In this document: positions 30,532-45,475 of the stretch, piece after piece | Numbering within the stretch: the first letter of the stretch is position 1 | How the letters are laid out: each line of letters opens with the position of its first letter | NCBI GenBank assembly: GCA_021811365.1 | Contig: JAJZPB010000003.1 | Location: 1 to 60,854, forward strand | DNA length: 60,854 nt | Origin: a bacterium | Lineage (GTDB): Bacteria; Patescibacteriota; Minisyncoccia; Phycocordibacterales; Phycocordibacteraceae | Direction of reading: 5' to 3' | Program-made: the position numbers and the translations under genes | The notes under the pieces: model-generated | What the model was told of the DNA's origin: nothing | What the model saw: the letters and a program-made list of their open reading frames with translations, nothing else | Databases searched by the model: none

Positions 30532-31188
30532 ATGAGCGCGGGCATTAAACAGATGCCAGCGCATGAGCGGCCGCGCGAGAAGCTTATTGCCAAAGGCGTT
30601 GAGAACCTTTCCGACAAAGAGTTGCTCGCCATTCTTTTGCGCACCGGAAGAGCGGGGAAGAGTGCGCTCGATATCGCCGAAGGCATCCTCGCGAAGTATC
30701 CGAAAAGAAAAGTGCTCGACGTGACTTTTGAGGAACTTACAGCAGTGAAAGGAATTGATGCGGGGAAGGCGTGCACGCTGCTTGCGGCATTTGAGTTCAC
30801 GAAGCGTGCAGAGGGCGCGCGCCAAAACGGCCGGCCCATCATCGACTCTGACGAAGCGGCACTCGCGCAGCTCCACGACATCCGCGCCCACAAGAAGGAG
30901 CATTTTGTTGCGCTCTACTTGAATGCGCGCAACGAGCTCATCCACCGCGAAGACATCTCCGTAGGCACCGTAAACGCAAGCATCGTCCACCCGCGCGACG
31001 TTTTCGCCCCTGCACTCGAGCACAACGCCACAGGGGTCATCGTCGCCCACAACCATCCCTCAGGTTTCCCGGACCCCTCTCCCGAAGACCGTGAGGTCAC
31101 CACTCGCCTCCGCGAGGCAGGTAAGCTTATGGGCGTGCGGCTCATTTCGCATCTTATCCTTACGAGTGATTCGCAGCACCGGGCATGA
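30532..31188 (+). CDS. radC: RadC-family JAB-domain protein
   Basis: RPREKL...LSDKELLAILLRTG, VHPRDVF, AHNHPSG.P.PS.ED. Confidence 0.93.
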   Translation: MSAGIKQMPAHERPREKLIAKGVENLSDKELLAILLRTGRAGKSALDIAEGILAKYPKRKVLDVTFEELTAVKGIDAGKACTLLAAFEFTKRAEGARQNGRPIIDSDEAALAQLHDIRAHKKEHFVALYLNARNELIHREDISVGTVNASIVHPRDVFAPALEHNATGVIVAHNHPSGFPDPSPEDREVTTRLREAGKLMGVRLISHLILTSDSQHRA

Positions 31189-31806: not shown

Positions 31807-31878
31807 GTGAGGCCACACATTTGTGGACTGCACGCCACCCTATGAAAAATGAAGATTTTGTGGGATAGTCTTCATATT

Positions 31879-34218
31879 ATGGGCTCGCTAAACGAAGCAG
31901 AAACGCGCTCTCGCCTCATCCGGCCAGCCTTTGTGCGTGCGGGCTGGGAGGAAAAACAAATCAGCGAGGAGGTGCCGTTTACGGCTGGCCGCATCATGGT
32001 GCGCGGCAAGACCATCTCCCGCGGAGAAAAGAAGCGCGCCGACTTCGTTCTCTACTACAAAAACAACCTGCCTATCGCGGTCGTTGAAGCGAAAGATATC
32101 AGCCACACCATTTCAGACGGCATACAGCAGGCACTTGAATACGCGGACATTCTCGACATTCCGTTCGTGTATAGCTCAAACGGCGAGGGCTTTGTTGAGC
32201 ACGACAAGCTTGCAGTGGGCGCGATTGAAAAGGAGCTATCCCTCGAGGCATTTCCATCGCCCGATGAGCTGTACCAGCGCTACTGCAAGGCTAAAGGCAT
32301 TACGCAAGAAAGCGGAACAGCGCTCATACAGGAATATCATCCCACGACCAAGCCTCGTTATTTCCAGCGCGTTGCGATCAATCGCGTCGTGGAAGCAGTT
32401 GCCAAAGGGCAGCAGCGCATTTTGCTCGTCATGGCGACCGGCACGGGTAAAACGTATACTGCGTTCCAAATCATTTGGCGGCTCTGGAAGTCGAAGCAGA
32501 AGCAGCGCATCTTGTTCCTTGTTGACCGCACGGCGCTCTCCGACCAAACATTCAAAAGCGACTTCCGCCACTTTGGCGATGCTCTCACGCAAGTCAAAGG
32601 TCCAAACGTCGACCCGGCCTACGAGGTGTACATCGCGCTCTACCAAGGGCTCATGGGCGGCGAAGCTGTAGAAAAGTTCAAGCAGTTCTCGCCGGACTTC
32701 TTTGACCTCATTGTGATCGATGAGTGTCACCGCGGGAGCGCTAAAGAAGACAGCGAGTGGCGCGCCATTCTCGATTACTACCAGTCCGCGACGCAAATCG
32801 GCCTTACGGCTACGCCGAAGGCGGCTGACGACGCGAACAACTTTGAATACTTTGGCGAGCCCATTTACACCTACTCGCTCAAGCAGGGGATTGAGGACGG
32901 CTTCCTTGCGCCATACAAAGTAATCCGCTACATCACCGACAAAGAAGAGTGGCGACCCGATAGCCTTGTGCGCGATAGTGCCGGGAACGAAGTCGAAGAC
33001 CGGATCTATACCACGGCCGACTACGATGCAAAAATCGTTATTGACGCTCGTACGAAACTGGTCGCCGAAAAGGTCGTAGAATTCATGCGCCAGACCGACC
33101 CCATGCAAAAGACGATTGTCTTCTGCGTAGATCAGGATCACGCCGCGCGGATGCGCCAGGCGCTCGTCAATGCGGCGGGCGACCTCGCGCGAGAAAACGC
33201 GCGCTACGTCGTGCGCATCACGGGCGATGACCAGGCAGGGAAGCTCGAAATCGACAATTTCATCAACCCCGAATCGCCGTATCCGGTCATTGCGACCACC
33301 TCAAAGCTCCTCTCGACGGGTGTGGACACGCAGACGGTGAAGCTCATTGTGCTCGATGCGCCCATGAACTCCATGACCGAGTTTAAGCAGATCATCGGCC
33401 GTGGCACGCGCGTAAACGAGCAGTACGGCAAGTACTACTTCACCATTATGGATTTCCGCAATGTGACGCGGCTCTTTGCGGACCCCGACTTCGACGGTGA
33501 AGCGGTCGAAACCTACGACGCGAAAGCGGAAGAAACCATTCCAGTGAAAGAAATCCTCGAAAAGGAAACCGTTTCTGAAGCGGAAATCTATCGCTCAAAT
33601 CCACGCGAAGAGATTCTCATTGACGGAACGGACACGGACCCACGGCCTAAAAAGATCCACATCACCGATGGTGTCACCTTTGATGTCGTACACAAGGTCG
33701 TGCAGTACATCGACCCGGCCACCGGCAAGCTGCGTACGGACACCATTGAGAAATTTAGCCAGCAGGCTATTCTCAGCAGTTTCGCTTCGCTTGAAGACTT
33801 CCTTAGCCGGTGGAATGCCGAAACACGCAAAGAAGCGCTCATTGTTGAGCTCGAGGCGCAGGGCATCATGTTTGACGAGCTGCGCGAAGACGTCGGTCAG
33901 GATTGCGATATCTTCGATCTCATTCTGCACGTCGCCTATGGCAAGAAGCCGCTCACGCGGAGCGAGCGACTCAAGAAGGCGAGGGCTAGCGACTACTTCG
34001 CCAAGTACGAGGGCAAAGCACGGGAAATCATCGACCATCTGCTTGAGAAGTATGCGGAGCACGGCATCACCGCCATAGACGACATTGGCGACCTCACCGT
34101 TTCGCCCTTTAGCGAGTACGGCGGGCCGGTGGAGATTGTTGAGGAAATCTTTGGCGGTCGAGAGAAATACCTAGAAGTAATTCGGGAGATAGAGCAGCAG
34201 CTTTATACTGCTGAATAG
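31879..34218 (+). CDS. hsdR: Type I restriction enzyme R subunit (EcoEI/EcoAI-like)
   Basis: AD..L...N.PIAVVEAK nuclease motif; ATGTGKT, DECH, TATP; EcoEI_R_C-like HVAYGKKPLTRSER. Confidence 0.95.
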   Translation: MGSLNEAETRSRLIRPAFVRAGWEEKQISEEVPFTAGRIMVRGKTISRGEKKRADFVLYYKNNLPIAVVEAKDISHTISDGIQQALEYADILDIPFVYSSNGEGFVEHDKLAVGAIEKELSLEAFPSPDELYQRYCKAKGITQESGTALIQEYHPTTKPRYFQRVAINRVVEAVAKGQQRILLVMATGTGKTYTAFQIIWRLWKSKQKQRILFLVDRTALSDQTFKSDFRHFGDALTQVKGPNVDPAYEVYIALYQGLMGGEAVEKFKQFSPDFFDLIVIDECHRGSAKEDSEWRAILDYYQSATQIGLTATPKAADDANNFEYFGEPIYTYSLKQGIEDGFLAPYKVIRYITDKEEWRPDSLVRDSAGNEVEDRIYTTADYDAKIVIDARTKLVAEKVVEFMRQTDPMQKTIVFCVDQDHAARMRQALVNAAGDLARENARYVVRITGDDQAGKLEIDNFINPESPYPVIATTSKLLSTGVDTQTVKLIVLDAPMNSMTEFKQIIGRGTRVNEQYGKYYFTIMDFRNVTRLFADPDFDGEAVETYDAKAEETIPVKEILEKETVSEAEIYRSNPREEILIDGTDTDPRPKKIHITDGVTFDVVHKVVQYIDPATGKLRTDTIEKFSQQAILSSFASLEDFLSRWNAETRKEALIVELEAQGIMFDELREDVGQDCDIFDLILHVAYGKKPLTRSERLKKARASDYFAKYEGKAREIIDHLLEKYAEHGITAIDDIGDLTVSPFSEYGGPVEIVEEIFGGREKYLEVIREIEQQLYTAE

Positions 34219-34222
34219 CACC

Positions 34223-34744
34223 ATGAAGAAAGACGTAAACAATTACGCGTTCATAGACAGTCAAAACGTAAATCTTGCCATCCGCGAGCTCGGTTGGAGA
34301 CTCGATTGGCGTCGTTTTCGTACCTACTTAAGGGAGAAGTACGGCGTAACGAAGTCGTTTCTGTTTATTGGGTTTGTGCAAGGAAATCAGGATTTATATA
34401 CCGCACTTCAAGATGCTGGTTTTGTGTGCGTATTCAAGCCGGCACTCACGTATAAGGATGGGACCACTAAAGGAAACTGTGACGCAGAATTGGTCTTGCA
34501 GGCAATGATCGAACGAGACAACTATGATAAGGCGATTATCGTGACTGGGGATGGAGATTTCTATTGCCTCGTCAAGTACTTTATCGATCAGCAAAAGCTT
34601 GAGGTGCTGTTGGTGCCGAATAAAAAGAAGTTCTCAGCCTTGCTCAAGGCACGAATTTGCCGACCATATTTACGGTACCTAAACGACCTGCAAGAGAAGC
34701 TGGCCTATAAAAAGAAAAGGCCCCATGAGGACGAAACCTCATAG
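34223..34744 (+). CDS. NYN / LabA-DUF88 PIN-like ribonuclease
   Basis: FIDSQN, KGNCDAELV, IVTGDGDF acidic motifs. Confidence 0.9.
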   Translation: MKKDVNNYAFIDSQNVNLAIRELGWRLDWRRFRTYLREKYGVTKSFLFIGFVQGNQDLYTALQDAGFVCVFKPALTYKDGTTKGNCDAELVLQAMIERDNYDKAIIVTGDGDFYCLVKYFIDQQKLEVLLVPNKKKFSALLKARICRPYLRYLNDLQEKLAYKKKRPHEDETS

Positions 34745-34839: not shown

Positions 34840-36285
34840 ATGGCAGACATCGGCAACATCATCAAAGCGATTCAGAACATCATGCGCAAAGACGCGGGTG
34901 TCGACGGCGATGCCTTGCGCCTCTCGCAGCTTGCGTGGATGCTTTTCCTCAAGATTTTCGATGACCACGAGACGCAGCAAGAGTATGTAGACGCGGCGTA
35001 TCGTTCACCAATTCCGGAAAAACTGCGCTGGCGCAACTGGGCGGCAAACCAGGAGGGTATTACGGGTGACGAGCTCTCGGCCTTTATCGACAAAGAGCTT
35101 TTCCCGGCGCTGCGCAGTTTGCCGGTATCCGACCCGAATTCTCCGGCTGCCATCATTCAGAGCGTGTTCGTGGACTCCTACAACTACATGAAAAATGGCA
35201 CGCTTATGCGCCAGGTCATCAACAAGCTGCAGGAGATCAATTTCAACAAGAGCGCCGATCGCCACCAGTTCGGCGACGTGTACGAAAAGCTCCTTAAAGA
35301 CCTGCAGAGCGCCGGTAACTATGGCGAGTTCTACACGCCGCGCCCGCTGACGAAATTCATCGTCGAAATGGTGGACCCGAAGCTTGGCGATACCGTGCTC
35401 GACCCGGCCTGCGGCACGGGCGGCTTTCTCATAAACATCCTCGAGTACGTGCGGGCGAAGCAAGTCAAAACAGCCGCCGACGAGAAGCAGCTCGAAGCTT
35501 CCGTGCGCGGCATTGAGCTCAAGGGCTTGCCGCACCTTCTTGCCACGACCAACTTCCTCCTGCACGATGTCGAGAACCCGAGCGCGCTCAAGCACGACGA
35601 CGCGCTCGCTAAACCGCTCACGCAATGGGGCCCGGCAGATCGGGTAGACGTAATTGTGGCCAACCCGCCCTTCGGCGCCTCCGTGGCCGACGGCACGCAG
35701 GCGAATTTTCCAGCCGAGCTGCGCACCAAGGCGACCGAGCTCCTCTTCCTTCAACTTTTTATTCACCTACTTAAGCCAGGCGGCAGGGCAGGTATCGTAT
35801 TGCCCGACGGCGTCTTTTTCGCCGAAGGCGTAGCGAGCAAAATAAAAGAGAAGCTCCTCACCGAGTGCAATGTGCACACGATTGTGCGCCTGCCGCCCGG
35901 TGTCTTCAACCCGTACGCGGGCGTAAATACCAACCTCGTCTTTTTTGAGAAAGGGAAGTCCACCGAAGAAGTGTGGTACTACCAAATGCCGCTCCCCGAG
36001 GGCGTCCGCGCCTACACCAAGACCAAGCCCATTACCGAGGCAGAGTTCGATCCTGTAAAAAAGTGGTGGGGCGGAGAAGCCCGCGCGGGCCGCAAAGCCG
36101 GCCCGCGCGCCTGGCGCGTCAGCATCGCCGACATCCGCGCCCGCTCCTTCAACCTCGACTTCAAAAACCCCAACGGCCCTGCAGCAGCAGCCCAAAAAAC
36201 TCCGAAAGAGATTTTGGCCGATTTTGAAAGCAAAGAAAAACAAATCTCCGCGCTGTTGGGGGAGATGAAGAAGGAAATAGTCTAA
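34840..36285 (+). CDS. hsdM: Type I R-M methyltransferase subunit (m6A)
   Basis: GEFYTPR, DPACGTGGFL, ANPPF, GIVLPDG, VRLP.GVF.PY motifs. Confidence 0.96.
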   Translation: MADIGNIIKAIQNIMRKDAGVDGDALRLSQLAWMLFLKIFDDHETQQEYVDAAYRSPIPEKLRWRNWAANQEGITGDELSAFIDKELFPALRSLPVSDPNSPAAIIQSVFVDSYNYMKNGTLMRQVINKLQEINFNKSADRHQFGDVYEKLLKDLQSAGNYGEFYTPRPLTKFIVEMVDPKLGDTVLDPACGTGGFLINILEYVRAKQVKTAADEKQLEASVRGIELKGLPHLLATTNFLLHDVENPSALKHDDALAKPLTQWGPADRVDVIVANPPFGASVADGTQANFPAELRTKATELLFLQLFIHLLKPGGRAGIVLPDGVFFAEGVASKIKEKLLTECNVHTIVRLPPGVFNPYAGVNTNLVFFEKGKSTEEVWYYQMPLPEGVRAYTKTKPITEAEFDPVKKWWGGEARAGRKAGPRAWRVSIADIRARSFNLDFKNPNGPAAAAQKTPKEILADFESKEKQISALLGEMKKEIV

Positions 36286-36290
36286 AATCT

Positions 36291-37355
36291 ATGGCTTTTT
36301 CGAAGGTTCCAAAAATTTCAAAAAATCGAATAAATTTGGCAGGGAAAGTTCTTGCTAAAAAGAAACCAAACGGGTTAAGTCTGGAAGACGCTATTTCCAT
36401 AGCTGACGCTTGGAGGGCATGTCATGCGTACCCGATTAATACATTTCAATCAACTCTGAGACGCAAGTTAAGTAAATTTTCTAATAACCCGCTCGTTGCT
36501 CAACGACTAAAGCGCATGCCCACTATCATCGATAAATTGCATCGATATCCAAAAATGCAACTTTCCAGGATGCAGGATATTGGTGGAGTACGAGCCATCC
36601 TGGGATCCGTTCACGATGTTTATCTGTTGGCAGAAGAATACAAAGACAAAAGCCGCTTCGCGCATGAGCTTATAGGACAAAAAGACTACATTAAATGTCC
36701 TCGTGACGACGATGGGTACAGAAGTCTCCACCTTATATATAAGTATAAGAATAAGCAGGCACAAGAATACGACGGATTGTTGCTTGAGTTGCAAATACGA
36801 ACCAAATTACAACATACATGGGCAACTGCGGTTGAGACTATGGGTACTTTTCTTGGACAAGCCCTAAAATCACGACTAGGAGACAAGGCTTGGCTCGAGT
36901 TCTTTTCAGCTGTTAGCTCGACTTTTGCTTCTATCGAAAACACAAACTTGCTTGAGAAGCATAAAGCTCTATCTCAGGAAGAACTTTTTCGTAAAGTTGC
37001 TTCGATGAACGGTGAGCTAAGGGTCCTCGAAAAAATAAGAGGATATTCTATTGCGGTAAATGAAATAAACAAGAGAGGTACTTCCGACGTGGGCTGGTCC
37101 TACCATCTAATTATTTTGAATTCCGAACAGAAGACTGTACAGATCAAGCCATACAAAAGAGGAAGTATTAAACAAGCGACGGAGGATTATTCGAAAGTTG
37201 AAGAGGAGGCTACTCGAGGGAAGAAAATTGAAGCAGTTTTAGTGTCGGCGGGCCCTCTGTCTGCACTGAGACAAGCATACCCGAACTTCTTTCTTGATAT
37301 AAGCGATTTTGTCGGCCGGATTGAGTCGATCGTTGCTGAAAGCAAGAAATTATGA
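36291..37355 (+). CDS. RelA/SpoT synthetase-domain protein, fused CapRel-like toxin-antitoxin
   Basis: WRACHAYP, QRLKR, MQDIGGVR, GYRSLH, ELQIRT..QH.WATAVE; C-terminal VLVS....LRQAYPNFF resembles the CapRel antitoxin anchor. Confidence 0.85.
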   Translation: MAFSKVPKISKNRINLAGKVLAKKKPNGLSLEDAISIADAWRACHAYPINTFQSTLRRKLSKFSNNPLVAQRLKRMPTIIDKLHRYPKMQLSRMQDIGGVRAILGSVHDVYLLAEEYKDKSRFAHELIGQKDYIKCPRDDDGYRSLHLIYKYKNKQAQEYDGLLLELQIRTKLQHTWATAVETMGTFLGQALKSRLGDKAWLEFFSAVSSTFASIENTNLLEKHKALSQEELFRKVASMNGELRVLEKIRGYSIAVNEINKRGTSDVGWSYHLIILNSEQKTVQIKPYKRGSIKQATEDYSKVEEEATRGKKIEAVLVSAGPLSALRQAYPNFFLDISDFVGRIESIVAESKKL

Positions 37356-37404: not shown

Positions 37405-37590
37405 ATGACTAATATCATTGAATTTATTCTCAATTACTTTTTCGTCCCGATCTATATGATCTTCCGGGGCATTTGGAAACTTTTTTCGAAATTACTCAAA
37501 GACGTAACTGGCCATATATACGGCAAGATTTTAGTGCCATTTCTTGCGCTAGCCATTGTGGCATATCTTGCGCATCTCTTTATAAAATGA
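37405..37590 (+). CDS. 61-aa small membrane protein, translationally coupled to hsdS
   Basis: Hydrophobic C-terminal helix; its TGA overlaps the hsdS ATG (ATGA 37587-37590). Confidence 0.6.
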   Translation: MTNIIEFILNYFFVPIYMIFRGIWKLFSKLLKDVTGHIYGKILVPFLALAIVAYLAHLFIK

Positions 37591-38657
37591 CCTATCCAAT
37601 CAAAAAACTTGGACAGGTTGTTGAATTTCGGTATGGGAAAGGTATTGACCGAAGTAGGCGTAACGAAAGCGGCGATGTACCCATTTACGGTGCTAATGGC
37701 ATTTTGGGTTGGACAGATAAAGTATTAATTTCTGGAGAGGCGATTATCGTCGGGCGGAAGGGTTCGGCAGGTGAACTGACACGGGTGGCAGGAAGATTTT
37801 GGCCGTCAGATGTTACGTATTATGTGTTTGGCAATGATCAAATAGACGTTGATTATCTTTTTTATTTTTTAAAAAGCGTAAACTTGCCACAGCTTGCAGC
37901 AGGAGTGAAGCCCGGCATCAACCGCAATCAGGTTTATCAAATCGAGATTCCGGTGCCGCCTTTGGCAGAGCAGAGGAAGATTGTGGCGAAGATAGAAAAG
38001 CAGTTTGCGAAGATAGACGAGGCCGCGCGCTTGCGCGCGGAGAGCCAGACCCTCACCGCCCAGCTCCTCCCCGCCGCCCTCCACGAAATCTTTTCCTCCG
38101 CCGAATCAAAAGGGTGGGGAGAAAAATCGCTTGGTGATCTCTGCGACATTTTAGACAGTAAACGAAAACCAATCACAAAACGAGATCGCAAATCTGGGTG
38201 CTATCCATACTATGGGGCAACGCAGGTGCAGGATTATGTTGCCGGTTATATTTTTGATGAGCCGCTTATTCTTCTTGGGGAGGACGGTGCTCGTTGGGGT
38301 GCAAACGAACAGAGCGCTTATCATATTGTCGGAAAGTCATGGGTGAATAATCACGCGCACGTTTTGCGGCCGCATCGAGACGAGCTTCTTGATGCATGGC
38401 TCGTATATGTATTGAACACCGAAGATCTGTCCCGATACATAACTGGAACGACTGTCAAAAAGTTAAACCAAGAAAAAATGCGAAGCATAAAAATCCCGCT
38501 TCCACCTCTCGCCGAGCAGAAGAAAATCGTCAAAAAGCTCGATGCACTTGCCGAAAAAGCCCGTGCCCTCGCCGCGCTCCAATCCGCTCAGGCCGCCGAC
38601 TTTAAGGCATTGAAACAATCTATTCTTCACGAAGTATTTTCAGGAGAGGTACAATAG
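37587..38657 (+). CDS. hsdS: Type I R-M specificity subunit (two TRDs)
   Basis: Two TRDs, each followed by IPVPPLAEQRKIV / IPLPPLAEQKKIV conserved helices; LKQSILHEVF end. Confidence 0.95.
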   Translation: MTYPIKKLGQVVEFRYGKGIDRSRRNESGDVPIYGANGILGWTDKVLISGEAIIVGRKGSAGELTRVAGRFWPSDVTYYVFGNDQIDVDYLFYFLKSVNLPQLAAGVKPGINRNQVYQIEIPVPPLAEQRKIVAKIEKQFAKIDEAARLRAESQTLTAQLLPAALHEIFSSAESKGWGEKSLGDLCDILDSKRKPITKRDRKSGCYPYYGATQVQDYVAGYIFDEPLILLGEDGARWGANEQSAYHIVGKSWVNNHAHVLRPHRDELLDAWLVYVLNTEDLSRYITGTTVKKLNQEKMRSIKIPLPPLAEQKKIVKKLDALAEKARALAALQSAQAADFKALKQSILHEVFSGEVQ

Positions 38658-38661
38658 AGAT

Positions 38662-38874
38662 ATGGAAATGATTCCCGTTTCGTCATCTGATATCCGGGCC
38701 ATCGGCTACGATGCGGCCACGGCGACATTGAGAGTCGATTTTATCTCGGGCGGCATATACGAGTATTTTGATGTACCGGAGTCTGTGCACGCCAATTTCC
38801 TGCGCGCGGCATCGTATGGGGAATTTTTAAATGATTTTATTCGATACAACTATCGGTATCAAAGAATCGGCTGA
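38662..38874 (+). CDS. KTSC-domain protein
   Basis: VSSSDIRAIGYD....TLRVDF..GG.YEY..VP......F..A.S.G.F.N..IR pattern. Confidence 0.88.
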   Translation: MEMIPVSSSDIRAIGYDAATATLRVDFISGGIYEYFDVPESVHANFLRAASYGEFLNDFIRYNYRYQRIG

Positions 38875-38875
38875 T

Positions 38876-39626
38876 ATGTTTACGCCTAAAACAGATCGGA
38901 TCGCTGAGGTGGCCAGCGAGAAAGCAAGAACAATTCAGGAGCTTGATCGGCTGCTCGGCAGTTCCACGCGCATGTATATAGACTATGCAAATGTGCGACC
39001 GTGGAGTACTCGGCTTGGATGGCATATCGATTTGAAAGCGCCTCAAGCAGTTTCTCGACTCGTTCGATACCATCCAGAAAGTGAACTTCTATGGCGGCTA
39101 CCTAGAGGGCGACGAACGCTCGGAGCAGGAGATCAAGGATGGAGAACAGCACAAATATGTTGTGCGTACGAAACCAGTCAAAATTATGCAGTTCCCAATC
39201 GATGCGTCGAGCATACCGCCAGACTCGACCGCGCTTCTTGATCAGTTTGTTAAGCGGTCACTCCTCCGAAAATACGAGGTCAGTACTATCGAGTATCTGA
39301 ATAACCGCTTCCGTGATATGAACAAGAAAGGTGAGTATTATATTGAAGATCGAAAATGCAATTTTGATGTCGAAATTGGCGTCGATATGCTTCTCGACTA
39401 CGAACGTGATGGGACAGAGACGTACGCATTGTGGACCGGCGACAGCGACTTTGCCGACCCTGTGCGGAAATTGTTACAAGCGGGCAGGAAAGTGATTATT
39501 TTCGCTACCGCGAGGAAAGTCTCTAAGGAACTCTCCGCTCTGCGGAATAACGGTCTCCTTATCTTCGATATCCAGAAAATACGCGATTTTATTTGCTGGA
39601 AAAAAGAAATGGATACGTCCAAATAA
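38876..39626 (+). pseudogene. NYN-domain ribonuclease split by one extra A at ~39035-39037
   Basis: Frame 1 gives ...YIDYANV...WHIDL; removing one A continues KRLKQFLDSFDTIQKVNFY...KCNFDVEIGVD...TGDSDF. Confidence 0.82.
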
Positions 39627-39752
39627 AGCAAAGGGGACCCCTTGCGGGGCCCCCAAGCTCTAGAATTCGCGATCTTGCGATCAAGGGCACTTTACCAAGA
39701 TTTACCTGAAAAAGCAATGAGCTGTGGATTGCCCAAATCCCTCTTCTCGCCC

Positions 39753-39893
39753 CTCGCCGAGCAGAAGAAGATCGTCAAAAAGCTCGATGCACTTGCCGAA
39801 AAAGCCCGCGCCCTCGCCACGCTCCAATCCCAGCAAGCTGCCGACCTCAAAGCTCTCAAGCAATCCATCCTGCACGAGGCGTTTGCCGTATGA
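39753..39893 (+). repeat. Displaced copy 2 of the hsdS 3' end (141 nt)
   Basis: 39753-39830 matches hsdS 38508-38585 at 75/78 nt (manual alignment); encodes LAEQKKIV...LKQSILHEAFAV*. Confidence 0.93.
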
Positions 39894-39926
39894 GGGTGAG
39901 CCGCGCAATCATGCTATCGTTGAAAC

Positions 39927-40481
39927 ATGAATAGGTTTGAGTCTAATTCTCCGCAGAGAGAGACGGCGCCCAAAGAGTTTGAGTGGGTTTACGAAAAGAG
40001 TGGCGGCGAGTGGCGGGCTGTTCGTGCTCCCAAGGTTGTCGCATTTTCGCAAGGCGGAGTTGAAGAAAAAGATAGACGTGCTAACAATACGCTCAAAATG
40101 CTGCGAGATATGGAAGAGAAATGGCAGCTTAATGACCCGGCGGTGGAGCATAATGAAGGTATTCTGCGCGACCATCCGTTTTATCACGATTTGTTTATAA
40201 AATGGGCGCAGCGGTATTTGGAGATGAAGCACTTCGACACGAGCGAGTTTTCCGGTCGTCTAGATGAGGGTGAGGGGAACCTTCTTTTGCCCAATGGGAG
40301 GTTTTCAAAGGTGTGGCTGACAAATGTAGTTGCGAACGGCAGAGAGTGGGTCGACGAACAGGTAGCAAATGAGCTATTGATATCTCAAGGCTTTCTCGAT
40401 ATTACGAATAACCACGAAAGACAAGAAGAACTTGGTATCGAGCCGGAAAACGACGGTTGGTGGACTCAAGACGAGGTGTAA
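39927..40481 (+). CDS. Hypothetical protein (184 aa)
   Basis: TGc-TATCGT 6 nt upstream of ATG; no motif recognised. Confidence 0.65.
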   Translation: MNRFESNSPQRETAPKEFEWVYEKSGGEWRAVRAPKVVAFSQGGVEEKDRRANNTLKMLRDMEEKWQLNDPAVEHNEGILRDHPFYHDLFIKWAQRYLEMKHFDTSEFSGRLDEGEGNLLLPNGRFSKVWLTNVVANGREWVDEQVANELLISQGFLDITNNHERQEELGIEPENDGWWTQDEV

Positions 40482-40491
40482 AGAGTTTCGC

Positions 40492-40626
40492 ATGGACGAC
40501 GAGATTTTTGAAAAGGCGAAGGAGGAGGACCTGAGTGCCGATGAGGCACACGAGCTCGCAGACTTTATGGACGAGAACGGTATCGATGATGTCGACGAGG
40601 CATACGAGATTTGGAGTGAGTTGTAG
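40492..40626 (+). CDS. 44-aa extremely acidic protein
   Basis: MDDEIFEKAKEEDLSADEAHELADFMDENGIDDVDEAYEIWSEL; 19/44 residues are D/E; spaced ~10 nt from both neighbours. Confidence 0.7.
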   Translation: MDDEIFEKAKEEDLSADEAHELADFMDENGIDDVDEAYEIWSEL

Positions 40627-40635
40627 AATAGGATT

Positions 40636-40965
40636 ATGGATGAGGAAGAAATTCGAAAGTGTGTGGAAGCGGCTGGTGCTGCGGGGCTGCCTACGCCAGT
40701 GCGGCTTACGGTGCGGTATCATCCAGACCTTTGGAACATAACGGGTGTATCTGAGGAGCCGATGCTGATGGGTGGGAGCGGTACCTTCCTTTACGTTTTG
40801 CAAAACATACTTGCGGCGCATCCTGAGATAGAAAAGAAGTACCCGCCCGGTGCCCTCGCGATTTTCTTAAACGATTCAATACCCAAACCGCATTCACCGC
40901 TCTTTGATGGAGACCTTATTCGACTGGCTCCCAAGGATAGTTTGCTGCCCCCTCGCAGTGCATAA
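40636..40965 (+). CDS. MoaD/ThiS-like beta-grasp (ubiquitin-like) protein without C-terminal GG
   Basis: VRLTVRY...ITGVSEE...T...VL..I...HP.I...AIFLN....PLFDGD.I.L.P pattern; ends LLPPRSA. Confidence 0.65.
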   Translation: MDEEEIRKCVEAAGAAGLPTPVRLTVRYHPDLWNITGVSEEPMLMGGSGTFLYVLQNILAAHPEIEKKYPPGALAIFLNDSIPKPHSPLFDGDLIRLAPKDSLLPPRSA

Positions 40966-41001
40966 CCCGCGTCCTGTTGGATGGCGTAGTAGTATGGGCA
41001 C

Positions 41002-41967
41002 ATGAAGAAAGCGCAGAAAGAAAAAGAAACGTCGGTCGTTTTCCAAGCTAAAAACGGAGCCATTGAGCTGCGCGGCGATGTTGCGCGCGAGACGATTTGG
41101 GCGACGCAGGCGCAGATTGTGAAGCTATTTGGGGTCGATCAGTCGGTCGTCTCTCGCCACGTGCGCAACATTTTTAAAGACGGAGAAGTGAGTCCCAAAA
41201 GCAATATGCAAAAAATGCATACTGCTCATTCTGACCGGCCCGTTGCTCTGTACTCGTTGGATGTAGTTTTAGCAGTCGGCTACAGGACAAATTCAAAGGT
41301 GGCAATAGCGTTTCGCCAATGGGCGACCAAGACGCTGCGCGAGCACATAACCCGCGGCTACACTATAAACCGCAAACAAATTGGCAATAACTACGACGCC
41401 TTTATGCGCGCCGTGGGCGACATTCAGTCGCTCTTGCCAGCGCACGTGACGCTCGACCCGAATCAGGTGCTTGAGCTCATTAAAGAATTTGCAAGCACGT
41501 GGGTGTCGCTCGATGCGTACGATAAGGATGCGCTTAAACCGATTGGCACGACAAAAAAAGCAGTACGACTGAGTGCGGAGGAGCTCTCTGCGGCGATTTC
41601 TCGGCTGCGCGACGAGCTTATGCGAAAGGGCGAAGCGACGGACTTGTTTGCACATGAGCGACAGGCGGGAACTGTCGAGGGTATAGTCGGCAACGTGATG
41701 CAGGCGTTCGGCGGCAAGTCGCTCTATGCGAGCGTGGAAGAGAAGGCGGCGCACCTGCTGTACTTTATGGTGAAGAACCACCCGTTCTCGGACGGCAACA
41801 AGCGGTCGGGCGCTTTCGCGTTTGTGTGGTTCTTGCGGAAAGCAGGCGGGAAGAAGAATCGCGTAATAACGCCGGCGGCGCTCACCGCGCTTACGCTCTT
41901 GATTGCCGAGAGCGATCCTGCGCACAAGGAGAAAATGACCGCGCTCGTGACGCGGCTACTTGCGTAA
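41002..41967 (+). CDS. RhuM-like DNA-binding domain fused to a Fic/Doc domain
   Basis: ETIWATQ.QI..LF...H..NIF, YSLDVVLAVGYRTNS..A..FRQWA (RhuM); HPFSDGNKRSG (Fic/Doc). Confidence 0.9.
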   Translation: MKKAQKEKETSVVFQAKNGAIELRGDVARETIWATQAQIVKLFGVDQSVVSRHVRNIFKDGEVSPKSNMQKMHTAHSDRPVALYSLDVVLAVGYRTNSKVAIAFRQWATKTLREHITRGYTINRKQIGNNYDAFMRAVGDIQSLLPAHVTLDPNQVLELIKEFASTWVSLDAYDKDALKPIGTTKKAVRLSAEELSAAISRLRDELMRKGEATDLFAHERQAGTVEGIVGNVMQAFGGKSLYASVEEKAAHLLYFMVKNHPFSDGNKRSGAFAFVWFLRKAGGKKNRVITPAALTALTLLIAESDPAHKEKMTALVTRLLA

Positions 41968-42053
41968 CGTTCGAGGTTTTTCAGCGGTGTACGCCCAGCG
42001 CGTTGTCGATGTAATGCTCTTAAGAAGTCCATTCTGAACGACGCACCCGCAAT

Positions 42054-42506
42054 ATGAACTACTGGCTGATGAAGACGGAACCGGGGGAGTTTTCGATCGA
42101 TGACCTCAAGCGCATTAAGGAGGAGCCCTGGACGGGCGTGCGCAACTACCAGGCGCGGAACTACATGCGCGACACCATGGCGGTGGGGGACGCGGTGCTG
42201 ATCTACCACTCGAGCTGCGAGGTGCCGGGCGTGTATGGAATGGCGAAGGTTTCGCACTTGGCGGAGCCAGACGCGGCGCAGTTTGACCCGAAGAGTAAAT
42301 ACTATGACGCGAAGGCGCGGCGCGAAGCGCCGCGGTGGTGGGGCGTGCGAGTGCGCTTCGTGAAAAAGCTTGCTGTGCCCGTGCCACTCTCTGTACTCAA
42401 GAAAGACAAGAAGCTGCAGAAGATGTTCCTCTTCACCAATGGGCGGCTCTCGGTGGGGGCCGTTACAAAGGCCGAGTACGAGCGTATTCTCGCGCTTGCA
42501 AGGTAG
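42054..42506 (+). CDS. EVE-domain protein (THYN1-like)
   Basis: YWLMKTEP, WTGVRNYQARNYM, GD.V.IYHS, RLSV.AV motifs. Confidence 0.92.
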   Translation: MNYWLMKTEPGEFSIDDLKRIKEEPWTGVRNYQARNYMRDTMAVGDAVLIYHSSCEVPGVYGMAKVSHLAEPDAAQFDPKSKYYDAKARREAPRWWGVRVRFVKKLAVPVPLSVLKKDKKLQKMFLFTNGRLSVGAVTKAEYERILALAR

Positions 42507-42556
42507 AGCGGCGCGCTTATCTTTGCCGAAGAATCGTGACAGTCATGATTAGTTAC

Positions 42557-42613
42557 GCCGACCTCAAAGCTCTCAAGCAATCCATTCTCCGTGAGGCGTT
42601 CTCCAATGTATGA
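42557..42613 (+). repeat. Displaced copy 3 of the hsdS 3' end (57 nt)
   Basis: 42557-42585 is identical to 39840-39868 (29 nt); encodes ADLKALKQSILREAFSNV*. Confidence 0.9.
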
Positions 42614-42627
42614 CAATGAAAAGTGAA

Positions 42628-42656
42628 TGCCCCCGTCTCGGATAGAGACGGAGGCA
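42628..42656. terminator. Hairpin between convergent units
   Basis: TGCC.CCGTCTC-ggata-GAGACGG.GGCA. Confidence 0.55.
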
Positions 42657-42693
42657 CGGAGTGTAGGTAAGGTCGGCTGGCTGAAGTCTTCTT

Positions 42694-44963: not shown

Positions 44964-45000
44964 AGGGCAGGGCAGGTTTTGGTTCGCGTTTGCGTGCGCA

Positions 45001-45032
45001 AAGCGCCCCGAGGCAGCAGCCTCGGGGCGCTT
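45001..45032. terminator. 14-bp perfect hairpin after the SurA-like gene
   Basis: AAGCGCCCCGAGGC-agca-GCCTCGGGGCGCTT. Confidence 0.7.
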
Positions 45033-45049
45033 GGTATACTCAGGCTTTG

Positions 45050-45475
45050 ATGTTCGGGAGAATCTGGAGAAAACGCCGTGCGCAACCAAAAACGCTCTCG
45101 TCGCAGAGCGTGCCTGTCGTACAGCTCCCGCGCGCAAAGCGAGGAAGCGCTGCAGAAAGTGAGGCGAAGAAAGCCGCGCGTGCGCTCGCGCACGCGCGGC
45201 TTGCGCACTTTAACCAGTTCTACGGATTTACCTACCAAAAGGTATTCATCCGCAATCAAAAAACGCGCTGGGGCGCGTGTTCGGCTAAAGGTAACCTCGG
45301 TTTCAACTACCGCATTACGTACTTACCGCCACAGCTCGCCGACTACGTGATTGTCCACGAGCTATGCCATCTCGGGCAGTTCAATCACTCGCCCGCATTT
45401 TGGCAGCTCGTTGCGCACGTGATTCCCGATTATAAAGCGCAGCGGAGAGAACTGCGCACCCGGTACCGATTTTAA
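45050..45475 (+). CDS. YgjP/DUF45 (M48-like) metallopeptidase-domain protein
   Basis: IRNQKTRWGACS, DYVIVHELCH, NHSPAFW. Confidence 0.9.
   Translation: MFGRIWRKRRAQPKTLSSQSVPVVQLPRAKRGSAAESEAKKAARALAHARLAHFNQFYGFTYQKVFIRNQKTRWGACSAKGNLGFNYRITYLPPQLADYVIVHELCHLGQFNHSPAFWQLVAHVIPDYKAQRRELRTRYRF

What the first reader, a model, noticed from the sequence alone, without database searches (positions are those of the whole stretch)
38508..42613. hsdS 3' end used as a recurrent insertion site: tandem cargo blocks separated by displaced hsdS tails
Seen: the hsdS C-terminal coding sequence occurs three times as direct repeats (38508-38657, 39753-39893, 42557-42613). Copy 2 matches hsdS at 75/78 nt, then diverges mostly synonymously. 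The tail now on the intact gene is AT-richer (TTTAAGGCATTGAAACAATCTATT), while the displaced tails have host-like codons (CTCAAAGCTCTCAAGCAATCCAT, 29 nt identical in copies 2 and 3). Block A (KTSC+NYN) and block B (184-aa ORF, acidic mini-protein, Ubl, RhuM-Fic, EVE) lie between the copies, and the stubs shorten with distance. Known: integrative elements often restore the 3' end of their target gene, and the pneumococcal tvr type I locus reshuffles by excision-reintegration between hsdS direct repeats. Inference: circles of 'hsdS tail + cargo' have inserted serially, building an integron-like defence array on a restriction gene, with no recombinase in the window.
Basis: partly seen in the sequence, partly recalled or inferred. 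Interest (0 to 1): 0.82.

Follow-up and report, generated by a model that had tools for sequence, protein, structure and literature searches.

The report
hsdS tail stubs flanking inserted cargo
Two leftover copies of the last few dozen codons of a restriction-enzyme specificity gene (hsdS) sit downstream of the intact gene and bracket two blocks of defence-type genes. The same scar pattern recurs in about a third of related operons, so it records how extra genes get stacked behind these operons, most likely by ordinary recombination and not by a dedicated gene-capture enzyme.

Summary
The hsdS C-terminal coding sequence occurs three times as same-strand direct repeats: the intact tail at 38488-38657, stub 2 at 39737-39893 and stub 3 at 42557-42613. 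Between them lie KTSC plus a frameshifted NYN gene (block A), and orf184, an acidic mini-protein, a MoaD-like Ubl, RhuM-Fic and EVE (block B). An independent 233-kb assembly is 99.9% identical with the same layout, so this is not a mis-assembly.

The live tail is a chimera. Its first 78 nt are 75/78 identical to stub 2. The rest is 68% identical but almost entirely synonymous, so two functional alleles met here. Block A's right junction is a 5-nt microhomology, not an att core.

In 44 related type I loci, the locus's own hsdS tail recurs 36 times downstream on the same strand, twice downstream on the opposite strand and never upstream. The hsdM tail recurs 0 times in 54 loci. Close archaeal relatives differ by exactly one "cassette + stub" unit.

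"Circles" and "integron-like" machinery are not shown, and stub boundaries vary. The best reading is recombination scars (insertion with long target duplication) that then serve as portable homology arms. This is a new variant of a known kind.

The parts
31849..34218 (+). hsdR, the restriction subunit of the type I R-M operon
   Evidence: 789-aa ORF. It is 75-79% identical to hsdR of L016/L096. Pfam ResIII/EcoEI_R_C on the identical gene in L090.
34223..34744 (+). NYN-domain gene embedded between hsdR and hsdM
   Evidence: Pfam NYN E=1.5e-13. A 74% identical homologue lies near the R-M locus of L080. GC 0.45.
34840..36285 (+). hsdM, the methyltransferase subunit
   Evidence: 481 aa. Relatives at 78/72/67/62% identity in L016/L017/L018/L080. 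Its tail is never duplicated in 54 loci.
36291..37355 (+). RelA/SpoT-like gene embedded between hsdM and hsdS (PADLOC candidate PDC-S33)
   Evidence: Pfam RelA_SpoT E=3e-16. PADLOC PDC-S33 E=1.8e-121, full length. GC 0.42.
37405..37590 (+). 61-aa membrane mini-ORF that accompanies hsdS
   Evidence: Homologues lie right after hsdS in L018 (56% identity) and right after hsdM in L080.
37587..38657 (+). Intact hsdS with a mosaic structure (TRD1, central conserved region, TRD2, tail)
   Evidence: Pfam Methylase_S E=4e-46. GC mosaic: TRD1 0.44, central conserved region 0.61, TRD2 0.46, tail 5' part 0.58, tail 3' part 0.44.
38488..38582 (+). Copy 1, 5' part: the resident-type tail segment that is duplicated in stub 2
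   Evidence: 74/78 identity to 39750-39827, plus about 17 nt of weaker homology upstream with one indel.
38583..38657 (+). Copy 1, 3' part: AT-richer foreign-allele tail end (DFKALKQSILHEVFSGEVQ*), continuous in GC with block A
   Evidence: 39/57 identity to stub 2, but only 3 of 19 residues differ. GC 0.44, like KTSC and NYN at 0.47. It resembles the L080 allele.
38662..38874 (+). Block A: KTSC-domain gene
   Evidence: Pfam KTSC E=7e-22. It forms a conserved pair with NYN in L081-L089.
38876..39626 (+). Block A: NYN/LabA-like gene, a pseudogene with a +1 frameshift near 39035-39040
   Evidence: Two frames join into a 249-aa protein that matches 246-258-aa homologues end to end at 70-87% identity. 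The same frameshift is present in the independent assembly L090.
39627..39741 (+). Conserved 3' flank of the KTSC-NYN module (GC hairpin plus about 90 nt). It ends in the microhomology (C)AAATC.
   Evidence: DNA homology to L081-L089 runs from 38812 to about 39741. The same element follows a ParA gene and precedes a mini-stub in L102. Single copy in this genome, no Rfam match.
39737..39893 (+). Stub 2: displaced hsdS tail (…PLAEQKKIVKKLDALAEKARALATLQSQQAADLKALKQSILHEAFAV*)
   Evidence: Its 3' part matches the tails of L016 and L017.
39927..40481 (+). Block B: 184-aa ORF of unknown function
   Evidence: No Pfam or PADLOC hit. Only 6 homologues at 52-65% identity, all in non-R-M contexts.
40492..40626 (+). 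Block B: 44-aa acidic mini-protein
   Evidence: ORF. A homologue lies directly after EVE in L116 (88.6% nt identity), and another lies downstream of an hsdS tail in L098.
40636..40965 (+). Block B: MoaD/SAMP-like beta-grasp (Ubl) protein without a C-terminal GG
   Evidence: 84 homologues. AF2 pLDDT 92.6. Foldseek hits to MoaD and SAMP1 at TM 0.75-0.82.
41002..41967 (+). Block B: RhuM-Fic fusion (PADLOC candidate PDC-S23)
   Evidence: Pfam RhuM plus Fic. PDC-S23 E=2.9e-103. RhuM cassettes sit between tail copies in L032 and L078.
42054..42506 (+). Block B: stand-alone EVE-domain protein
   Evidence: Pfam EVE E=4e-50. Present in only 5 of 40 same-genus genomes. It lies next to other restriction genes and a YgjP-like gene in L113/L114.
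42557..42613 (+). Stub 3: the shortest displaced tail (ADLKALKQSILREAFSNV*), followed by a convergent-terminator hairpin
   Evidence: 40/44 identity to stub 2, including a 29-nt identical run. E=1.6e-11. Hairpin at 42627-42657.

Best explanation
The two stubs are recombination scars of two separate additions of cargo behind the last gene of a type I R-M operon (gene order R-M-S). Each addition joined foreign DNA to the conserved C-terminal coding region of hsdS on the left by homology. On the right it joined by an illegitimate or microhomology event a little further upstream in the same tail. This duplicated 57 to about 157 nt of the tail ('insertion with long target duplication'). The intact gene keeps a working, partly foreign tail, and the old tail is pushed downstream. 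Block B came first and left stub 3. Block A came second, arriving with the AT-rich tail end now on the live gene, and left stub 2.

Once a cargo block is flanked by tail and stub, it carries its own pair of homology arms. General recombination (RecA in bacteria, RadA in archaea) can then delete it, shuffle it or copy it into any related hsdS tail after DNA uptake. That would explain why such arrays are common and polar. No dedicated recombinase is needed, and in this population the array is fixed.

Shown: the repeats, the chimeric tail, the microhomology junction, and the recurrence, polarity and modular indels in relatives. Inferred: the order of events, the homology-plus-illegitimate mechanism, the role of RecA and DNA uptake, and whether assembly happened in this genome or before the island arrived.
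For: (1) There are three same-strand copies far beyond chance and no other copy in the genome.

(2) The live tail is a mosaic. Positions 38505-38582 are 74/78 identical to stub 2. Positions 38583-38639 are 39/57 identical with 13 codons changed but only 3 residues changed. That is divergence accumulated under purifying selection in two functional alleles, not decay after a duplication. The GC of the foreign tail end (0.44) continues into KTSC and NYN (0.47), while the duplicated 5' part is host-like at 0.58-0.60.

(3) KTSC-NYN is an independent, widespread two-gene module, mostly not next to hsdS. Its DNA homology to the window ends at (C)AAATC, exactly where hsdS homology (AAAATCC, 38488) starts. 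This is a microhomology joint.

(4) The nearest hsdM relatives have one tail of the stub 2/3 type and neither block.

(5) Census: in 44 loci with intact hsdS, the locus's own tail recurs 36 times downstream on the same strand, twice downstream on the opposite strand and 0 times upstream. The searched DNA was 268 kb downstream and 408 kb upstream. About 16 of the 44 loci carry at least one such copy. Controls: hsdM tail 0 hits in 54 loci, hsdR tail 3 weak hits in 61 loci.

(6) Stub 5' ends are scattered from before PLPPLAEQ to the last 16 codons, so there is no common core.

(7) Modular indels: L025 equals L059 plus one 'RHH-ParE cassette + stub' unit, with flanks 92% identical. L032 equals L078 plus one cassette + stub.

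(8) Cargo in these arrays is toxin-antitoxin or defence genes: DarT/Macro, PIN, MNT/HepT, ParE, Fic, RhuM.

(9) RecA and ComEC are present. The only tyrosine recombinase sits between xth and rpsO, a housekeeping Xer-like context.

(10) An independent 233-kb assembly is 99.92% identical with the same layout.
Against: No orthologous empty site or intermediate allele (for example block B only) was found for this lineage, so the order of events and 'two events' are inferred from sequence mosaicism alone. In the archaeal comparisons, cassette identity tracks hsdRM identity (about 92% and about 80%), so the differences could all be deletions between stubs and not insertions. Many stubs start within 0-50 nt of the stop codon of the preceding cargo gene. 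In Methanosarcina-type loci a conserved ~60-nt hairpin element abuts each stub. Such tidy ends are more than random illegitimate joining predicts and leave room for a dedicated mechanism. The 5' shortening of distal stubs in 8 of 9 loci is not predicted by the model without an added survivorship or decay argument. Two large serine recombinases exist elsewhere in the genome. Reads could not be examined.
Confidence: 0.6

Rival explanations
1. A dedicated, site-specific cassette system (integron-like or tvr-like). In this reading, 'tail + cargo' units are excised as circles and inserted at the hsdS distal conserved region by a recombinase encoded elsewhere, for example one of the two large serine recombinases or the Xer-like enzyme.
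For: Arrays of up to three or four cassettes each followed by a stub. Stubs often start just after the cargo stop codon. Conserved structured elements sit at cassette 3' ends next to stubs: the ~60-nt hairpin element in 7 Methanosarcina-type loci, and the ~115-nt element after NYN here and after ParA in L102. The pneumococcal tvr locus shows that recombinase-driven excision-reintegration between hsdS direct repeats exists (PMC6265443). Recombinase genes exist in the genome.
Against: Stub boundaries fall at many different positions, so there is no shared core. Block A's right junction is a 5-nt microhomology with a module that also lives away from hsdS. There is no recombinase in the window or in most arrays. 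The tyrosine recombinase has a housekeeping context. The ~115-nt element is single-copy here and found in only 2 of 400 phylum genomes. The array is fixed in independent assemblies.
Confidence: 0.12
2. The array was assembled elsewhere, and the whole island (RadC through hsdR-M-S, blocks A and B, and stub 3) entered this genome in one transfer. The stubs are then inherited scars, and nothing has ever inserted at hsdS in this lineage. This is compatible with the scar mechanism but contradicts 'recurrent insertion in this genome'.
For: The R-M system is absent from 36 same-genus genomes. The upstream RadC is 75% identical to the RadC next to hsdR in L016 but only about 40% identical to same-genus RadC. 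EVE is sporadic in the genus. There is no polymorphism in independent assemblies.
Against: GC and allele mosaicism show several donors, but do not say where the joining took place. No donor carrying the full array was found.
Confidence: 0.2
3. The stubs are the decayed ends of additional full-length or half hsdS genes from a former multi-hsdS (phase-variable) array.
For: Many type I loci carry several hsdS genes or half-genes (PMC7394358 and PMC6265443, listed).
Against: The sequence directly upstream of stub 2 is the 3' flank of the NYN module, not a target recognition domain. Stub 3 starts 51 nt after EVE. The copies are all direct, none inverted. In relatives there is no room for a recognition domain between the cargo stop and the stub. 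Pfam finds no Methylase_S domain in the stub ORFs.
Confidence: 0.04
4. Assembly artefact: repeats created by mis-joining of strain variants.
For: The window comes from a metagenome-assembled genome. A short Logan contig (L091) breaks inside stub 2.
Against: A 233-kb contig from another sample is collinear at 99.92% identity, with no difference in any tail. Six contigs carry the locus, four of them over 200 kb. The three copies differ from one another in a codon-aware way.
Confidence: 0.02

Closest known systems
Insertion with long target duplication (Nobusato et al. 2000, cited as ref. 37 in Furuta, Abe & Kobayashi 2010, NAR, PMC2853133)
   Same: An insert without mobility genes is flanked by direct repeats of tens to hundreds of bp that are a duplicated piece of the target. 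It is linked to R-M loci and seen mostly in naturally competent species.
   Different: There the inserted unit is the R-M system itself, at varied targets. Here the R-M gene tail is the repeatedly used target, the inserts are non-R-M defence or toxin-antitoxin cargo, the events are stacked in series, and the two copies are different alleles over part of their length.
Pneumococcal tvr (SpnIV) locus: excision-reintegration between hsdS direct repeats (Kwun et al. 2018, PMC6265443)
   Same: Direct repeats inside a type I locus bracket a segment that carries toxin-antitoxin genes. The segment can leave as a circle and re-enter at another repeat. Some excision at the long repeats persists without the recombinase.
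   Different: tvr moves target-recognition-domain segments to change specificity and encodes its own recombinase, TvrR. Here the stubs carry no recognition domain, no recombinase is present, and no circles were observed.
Defence genes embedded in or appended to type I R-M operons (PrrC in EcoprrI; DarTG2 in the EPEC RRDM island, PMC12255303; TgvAB in V. cholerae VPI-2, PMC11411939; 'guilt by embedding', bioRxiv 10.1101/2024.01.29.577857)
   Same: Toxin-antitoxin, abortive-infection or type IV restriction genes are interleaved with hsd genes. The hsdS-proximal slot is called a 'potential recombination hotspot'. RhuM-Fic and RelA/SpoT-like genes are PADLOC candidates.
   Different: Those papers describe the content, not a footprint of acquisition. 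The embedding preprint does not mention hsdS, repeats or recombination. The tail stubs supply that footprint.
Integrons
   Same: A one-sided, polar array of small, mostly co-oriented cassettes grows from a fixed site, and many cassettes are toxin-antitoxin pairs.
   Different: There is no IntI, no attI or attC, and no fixed crossover point. The repeated unit is a piece of a coding sequence.
Integrative elements that target and restore the 3' end of a gene (tRNA- or tmRNA-type att sites)
   Same: The element brings a replacement 3' end, and the displaced original end lies at the far side of the insert.
   Different: Those have an integrase and an identical att core. Here there is no integrase and the junction positions vary.

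Membership tests
Type I R-M system (host locus) | hsdR, hsdM and hsdS with two recognition domains and two conserved regions | tested here: met
   ORFs and Pfam. The tail HMM hits both the central and the distal conserved regions.
Insertion with long target duplication | Insert flanked by direct repeats longer than 30 bp that are copies of one target sequence | tested here: met
   About 157-nt and 57-nt tail copies flank blocks A and B.
Insertion with long target duplication | No transposase or integrase in or beside the insert | tested here: met
   Pfam and PADLOC on all cargo ORFs find none.
Insertion with long target duplication | A related genome shows the target once, with no insert (empty site) | tested here: inconclusive
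   L016, L017, L018 and L080 have a single tail and no blocks, but their hsdM is only 62-78% identical and their downstream genes differ. No close empty-site allele was found.
Integron | IntI tyrosine recombinase adjacent to the array | tested here: not met
   The only PF00589 hit in the genome is on contig 21, between xth and rpsO.
Integron | attC-type imperfect palindrome at each cassette end, with one fixed crossover point | tested here: not met
   Stub 5' boundaries are scattered. The block A junction is a microhomology. There is no Rfam or structured match.
tvr/ivr-type phase-variable hsdS shuffling | Extra hsdS segments that encode target recognition domains | tested here: not met
   The stub ORFs have no Methylase_S match. 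The sequence upstream of stub 2 is the NYN-module flank.
tvr/ivr-type phase-variable hsdS shuffling | Locus-encoded recombinase | tested here: not met
   None in the window.
tvr/ivr-type phase-variable hsdS shuffling | Circular intermediates or alternative arrangements within a population | not testable with these tools
Independent assemblies show only one arrangement.
Site-specific integrative element restoring a gene's 3' end | Integrase plus an identical att core at both ends | tested here: not met
   There is no integrase. Copies 1 and 2 share an identity block of about 78 nt, but the boundaries are not conserved across loci.

The most novel reading that the evidence does not exclude
The distal conserved region of hsdS is a genuine gene-capture platform used across Bacteria (CPR) and Archaea (methanogens, Methanoperedens). 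'Cargo + tail stub' units are selected as self-addressed mobile cassettes that travel as excised circles or as transforming fragments. They dock by host homologous recombination into any related hsdS tail. The result is integron-like arrays of toxin-antitoxin and defence genes without any integrase. Tail stubs would then be a general marker for finding new defence genes.
Probability: 0.25. Interest if true: 0.8.

Novelty: new variant of a known kind. Interest (0 to 1): 0.55.

Why it matters
Defence genes are known to sit inside or behind type I R-M operons, but how they get there has not been described in the papers I could search. The displaced hsdS tails are a readable footprint of that process. 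They show which gene end is used, that events stack in series, and that the resulting repeats make each cargo block exchangeable by ordinary recombination. The pattern is statistically sharp (36 same-strand downstream copies against 0 upstream, with empty controls). It spans CPR bacteria and methanogenic archaea. It also gives a simple search handle: genes lying between an hsdS tail and its stub are candidates for new toxin-antitoxin or anti-phage functions, such as orf184, the acidic mini-protein and the GG-less Ubl found here.

Tried and rejected

Orthologous empty site in the genus: the R-M system is absent from 36 same-genus genomes, and RadC and EVE are not conserved there, so no synteny anchor exists.

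Decayed recognition domain upstream of stub 2: rejected, because that DNA is the 3' flank of the NYN module.

The ~115-nt element after NYN as a MITE or attC-like repeat: it is single-copy in this genome, found in 2 of 400 phylum genomes, has no Rfam hit, and its fold z-score is only -1.26.

Extra mini-stubs inside block B: none found.

Block B as one fixed unit: rejected. orf184 homologues live alone in non-R-M contexts, and L116 has EVE followed directly by the acidic gene.

EVE as a native backbone gene, which would have made stub 3 inexplicable: rejected, since it is present in only 5 of 40 same-genus genomes.

Promoter and terminator scan: uninformative.

Literature: five full-text searches found no description of hsdS-tail-bounded cassette arrays (a sixth query failed on a syntax error). 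Absence from this library is not proof of absence.

Full report
**Locus and observation.** The window comes from a 788-kb, 97%-complete, small-genome (Paceibacterota-like CPR) assembly. Positions 31.8-42.6 kb hold one co-oriented gene string:
- hsdR
- an NYN gene
- hsdM
- a RelA/SpoT-like gene (PADLOC PDC-S33)
- a 61-aa membrane mini-ORF
- hsdS
- block A: KTSC and NYN
- hsdS tail stub 2
- block B: orf184, a 44-aa acidic protein, a 109-aa protein, RhuM-Fic (PDC-S23) and EVE
- hsdS tail stub 3

These calls rest. Against the whole genome, stub 2 finds the live tail at E=1.3e-36 and stub 3 at E=1.6e-11, and nothing else. A degenerate KQSIL(H/R)E pattern hits three times against 0.02 expected. The 109-aa 'Ubl' is confirmed by fold. 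AlphaFold gives pLDDT 92.6 with a 40-sequence alignment, and the best PDB matches are MoaD and archaeal SAMP1 at TM 0.75-0.82. The protein lacks the C-terminal Gly-Gly.

**Not an artefact.** The orf184 protein occurs on six contigs. A 233-kb contig from another metagenome (L090) is collinear with the window over 20.5 kb at 99.92% identity. It has 15 substitutions and 2 indels, none in any tail and none at the NYN frameshift.

**Anatomy of block A.**
- The NYN gene is broken by a +1 frameshift near 39035-39040. Read through, it gives a 249-aa protein matched end to end by 246-258-aa homologues at 70-87% identity, with 1,743 hits in all.
- KTSC plus NYN is a conserved two-gene module in CPR-type metagenome contigs. 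It usually lies among housekeeping genes or near other restriction genes, not next to hsdS.
- DNA homology between the window and those modules runs from 38812 through the NYN stop and about 115 nt of conserved 3' flank, which includes a GC hairpin. It stops at (C)AAATC, about 39741.
- At that same pentamer, homology to hsdS begins (AAAATCC at 38488).
- The right junction of block A is therefore a microhomology joint. Stub 2 really spans 39737-39893, and there is no recognition-domain remnant in front of it.

**The live tail is a chimera.** From 38505 to 38582 it is 74/78 identical to stub 2, with host-like GC of 0.58-0.60. From 38583 to 38639 it is only 39/57 identical, yet 13 changed codons give just 3 residue changes. 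A dead stub would not diverge synonymously, so these are two alleles that evolved inside working hsdS genes and were then brought together. The foreign tail end has GC 0.44, which continues into KTSC and NYN at 0.47. Its peptide (DFKALKQSILH) resembles the L080 allele, while stubs 2 and 3 (DLKALKQSILH/R) resemble L016 and L017. hsdS as a whole is a GC mosaic: both conserved regions are at about 0.6 and both recognition domains at about 0.45. That fits crossovers in the conserved regions.

**Relatives of the operon.** The R-M system is missing from 36 same-genus genomes. A scan with HsdM returned 65 loci. The closest four (78, 72, 67 and 62% identity) have one hsdS tail and neither block. Their post-hsdS genes all differ. 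RadC upstream of hsdR is shared with L016 at 75% identity, but same-genus RadC genes are only about 40% identical. EVE occurs in only 5 of 40 same-genus genomes. The island is therefore larger than the operon, and it may have arrived already assembled.

**The pattern is general and polar.** An HMM of the tail found extra same-strand tail fragments downstream of hsdS in a dozen other loci, mostly from methanogens and Methanoperedens. I then ran a cleaner test, using each locus's own last 160 nt of hsdS plus 40 nt downstream as a blastn query against the whole locus.

| Query | Loci scanned | Same strand, downstream | Opposite strand, downstream | Upstream |
|---|---|---|---|---|
| hsdS tail | 44 | 36 | 2 | 0 |
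| hsdM tail | 54 | 0 | 0 | 0 |
| hsdR tail | 61 | 1 (weak) | 2 (weak) | 0 |

For the hsdS query, 268 kb was searched downstream and 408 kb upstream. About 16 of the 44 loci carry at least one copy. In 400 genomes of the window's phylum, about 25 carry this hsdS type, and clear stubs appear only in the window and perhaps two others. The window is thus an unusual bacterial example of something common in archaea.

**Modularity.**
- Two Methanoperedens loci with hsdR-hsdM 93% identical differ by exactly one unit. The single stub of L059 aligns through its left flank with stub 1 of L025 and through its right flank with stub 2 of L025. L025 has an extra 600 nt between them, made of a DUF2683/ParE-like pair plus one stub.
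- L032 equals L078 plus one more cassette and stub in front of a shared RhuM cassette.
- The ParE-like cassette follows a stub in L024 too, but behind a different upstream cargo.
- Cargo between tails is DarT/Macro (DarTG), PIN, MNT/HepT, ParE-like, Fic, RhuM and one IS transposase.
- Cassette identity tracks operon identity, so gain cannot be told from loss by recombination between stubs.

**Arguments against a site-specific system.**
- Stub 5' ends lie anywhere from before PLPPLAEQ to the last 16 codons.
- The one junction I could dissect is a microhomology.
- No recombinase lies in the window or in most arrays.
- The genome's only tyrosine recombinase sits between xth and rpsO, and two large serine recombinases are on other contigs.
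- RecA and ComEC are present.

**What still hints at more order than random scars.**
- Many stubs begin 0-50 nt after the preceding cargo stop codon.
- The second stub is shorter at its 5' end than the first in 8 of 9 loci.
- In seven Methanosarcina-type loci, a conserved ~60-nt hairpin element (12 copies, all on the + strand) follows each tail and directly abuts the next stub.
- The ~115-nt NYN flank also follows a ParA gene and precedes a mini-stub in metagenome contig L102.

**Block B is composite.** orf184 homologues stand alone in unrelated contexts. An 825-nt contig that is 97% identical over RhuM-Fic and EVE continues straight into the acidic gene (88.6% identity), not into stub 3. Modules therefore also reshuffle without tails.

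**Most likely mechanism.** There were two stacked 'insertions with long target duplication' at the last conserved stretch of the operon. The left joint used homology within the tail. The right joint was illegitimate, a little upstream in the same tail, through template switching or one-ended recombination. Block B came first and block A second. A cargo block flanked by tail and stub then owns both homology arms needed for RecA- or RadA-mediated deletion, shuffling or import into any related tail. That would explain two things. First, duplications mark the terminal hsdS tail. Second, they do not mark hsdM, whose downstream slot is already flanked by conserved sequence on both sides. These steps are inferred. 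Confidence is about 0.6.

**Comparison with what is known.** The closest published concept is insertion with long target duplication for R-M units (PMC2853133). The closest mechanistic analogue is tvr excision-reintegration (PMC6265443). Embedding of defence genes in type I operons is well known (PMC12255303, PMC11411939, the 2024 embedding preprint). None of these papers describes tail duplications as its footprint, and five full-text searches found no such description. Earlier notes from this scan report the same motif in at least nine other genomes. I treated them as leads only, and my census reaches the same conclusion independently.

**Verdict.** This is a new variant of a known kind, with interest 0.55.

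Noticed in passing
window 38876-39626 (frameshift near 39035-39040): The NYN gene of block A is a +1 frameshifted pseudogene of a highly conserved 246-258-aa NYN/LabA family (1,743 homologues). The same lesion is present in an independent assembly, so the newest cargo block is already decaying.
   Followed up: yes
window 38662-39741; L081-L089: KTSC (70 aa) plus NYN (about 248 aa) is a conserved, widely scattered two-gene module in CPR-type contigs. It has a conserved ~115-nt 3' flank starting at the stop codon with a GGGGACCCC-TTGC-GGGGCCCC hairpin. Its function is unknown; it could be a toxin-antitoxin-like or defence pair.
   Followed up: partly
L102:300-1860: A metagenome contig has this order: hsdS tail, a ~30-nt mini-stub, a ParA-like gene, the same ~115-nt NYN-type 3' element, then a second mini-stub (LNQSILHEAFVGK). 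The same element therefore abuts an hsdS stub in a second, independent locus.
   Followed up: partly
L039:13800-14400; L055:9290-11600; also L038, L041, L046, L060, L063: A conserved ~60-nt hairpin element (GTCCTCTTGAGCGCAGCGAAAAGGAC...CCCGAAGCGGAACTCGGG) occurs 12 times in 7 Methanosarcina-type loci. All copies are on the + strand and downstream of hsdS. Each follows a tail stop codon by about 25 nt and directly abuts the next stub, sometimes with no cargo in between.
   Followed up: partly
L116:1-825 versus window 41857-42505 and 40492-40614: In a 97%-identical relative, the acidic mini-protein gene follows EVE after 9 nt instead of stub 3. This is either a permuted order of block B modules or a tandem or circular form of the block.
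   Followed up: partly
window 37405-37590: A 61-aa membrane mini-ORF overlapping the hsdS start has homologues right after hsdS in L018 (56% identity) and right after hsdM in L080. It is a conserved small companion of this R-M family, of unknown role.
   Followed up: no
window 40636-40965: The 109-aa protein has a confident MoaD/SAMP1-like beta-grasp fold but no C-terminal Gly-Gly. Its 84 homologues are mostly 80-110 aa. No E1-like or JAB gene lies next to it, although a RadC-like JAB gene sits at 30532-31188.
   Followed up: partly
window 37587-38657: hsdS is a GC mosaic. Both conserved regions are at 0.58-0.61 and both target recognition domains at 0.44-0.46. This suggests the recognition domains were swapped in by crossovers in the conserved regions.
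   Followed up: partly
window 44990-45475; L017:10620-11159; L113/L114: A YgjP-like (DUF45, M48-type) gene lies about 2.4 kb beyond stub 3. A homologue lies about 2 kb beyond hsdS in L017, and another lies directly after EVE next to a methylase and a GmrSD-like gene in L113/L114. It may belong to the defence island, as the M48 gene does in the EPEC RRDM island.
   Followed up: no
L105 (reverse strand) 1-620: A short hsdS tail stub lies directly after the C-terminus of an hsdR gene, so in some loci hsdR itself lies in front of a displaced tail.
   Followed up: no
L020:6567-10914: Between hsdS and two stubs lie a split DarT, a Macro-domain DarG, an IS transposase (DUF772/DDE) and a PIN gene. This array combines toxin-antitoxin cargo with a true mobile element.
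   Followed up: partly
loci with two or more stubs: The distal stub is shorter at its 5' end than the proximal one in 8 of 9 loci. No simple insertion model predicts this. It may reflect survivorship of arrays whose older repeats are too short to recombine.
   Followed up: partly
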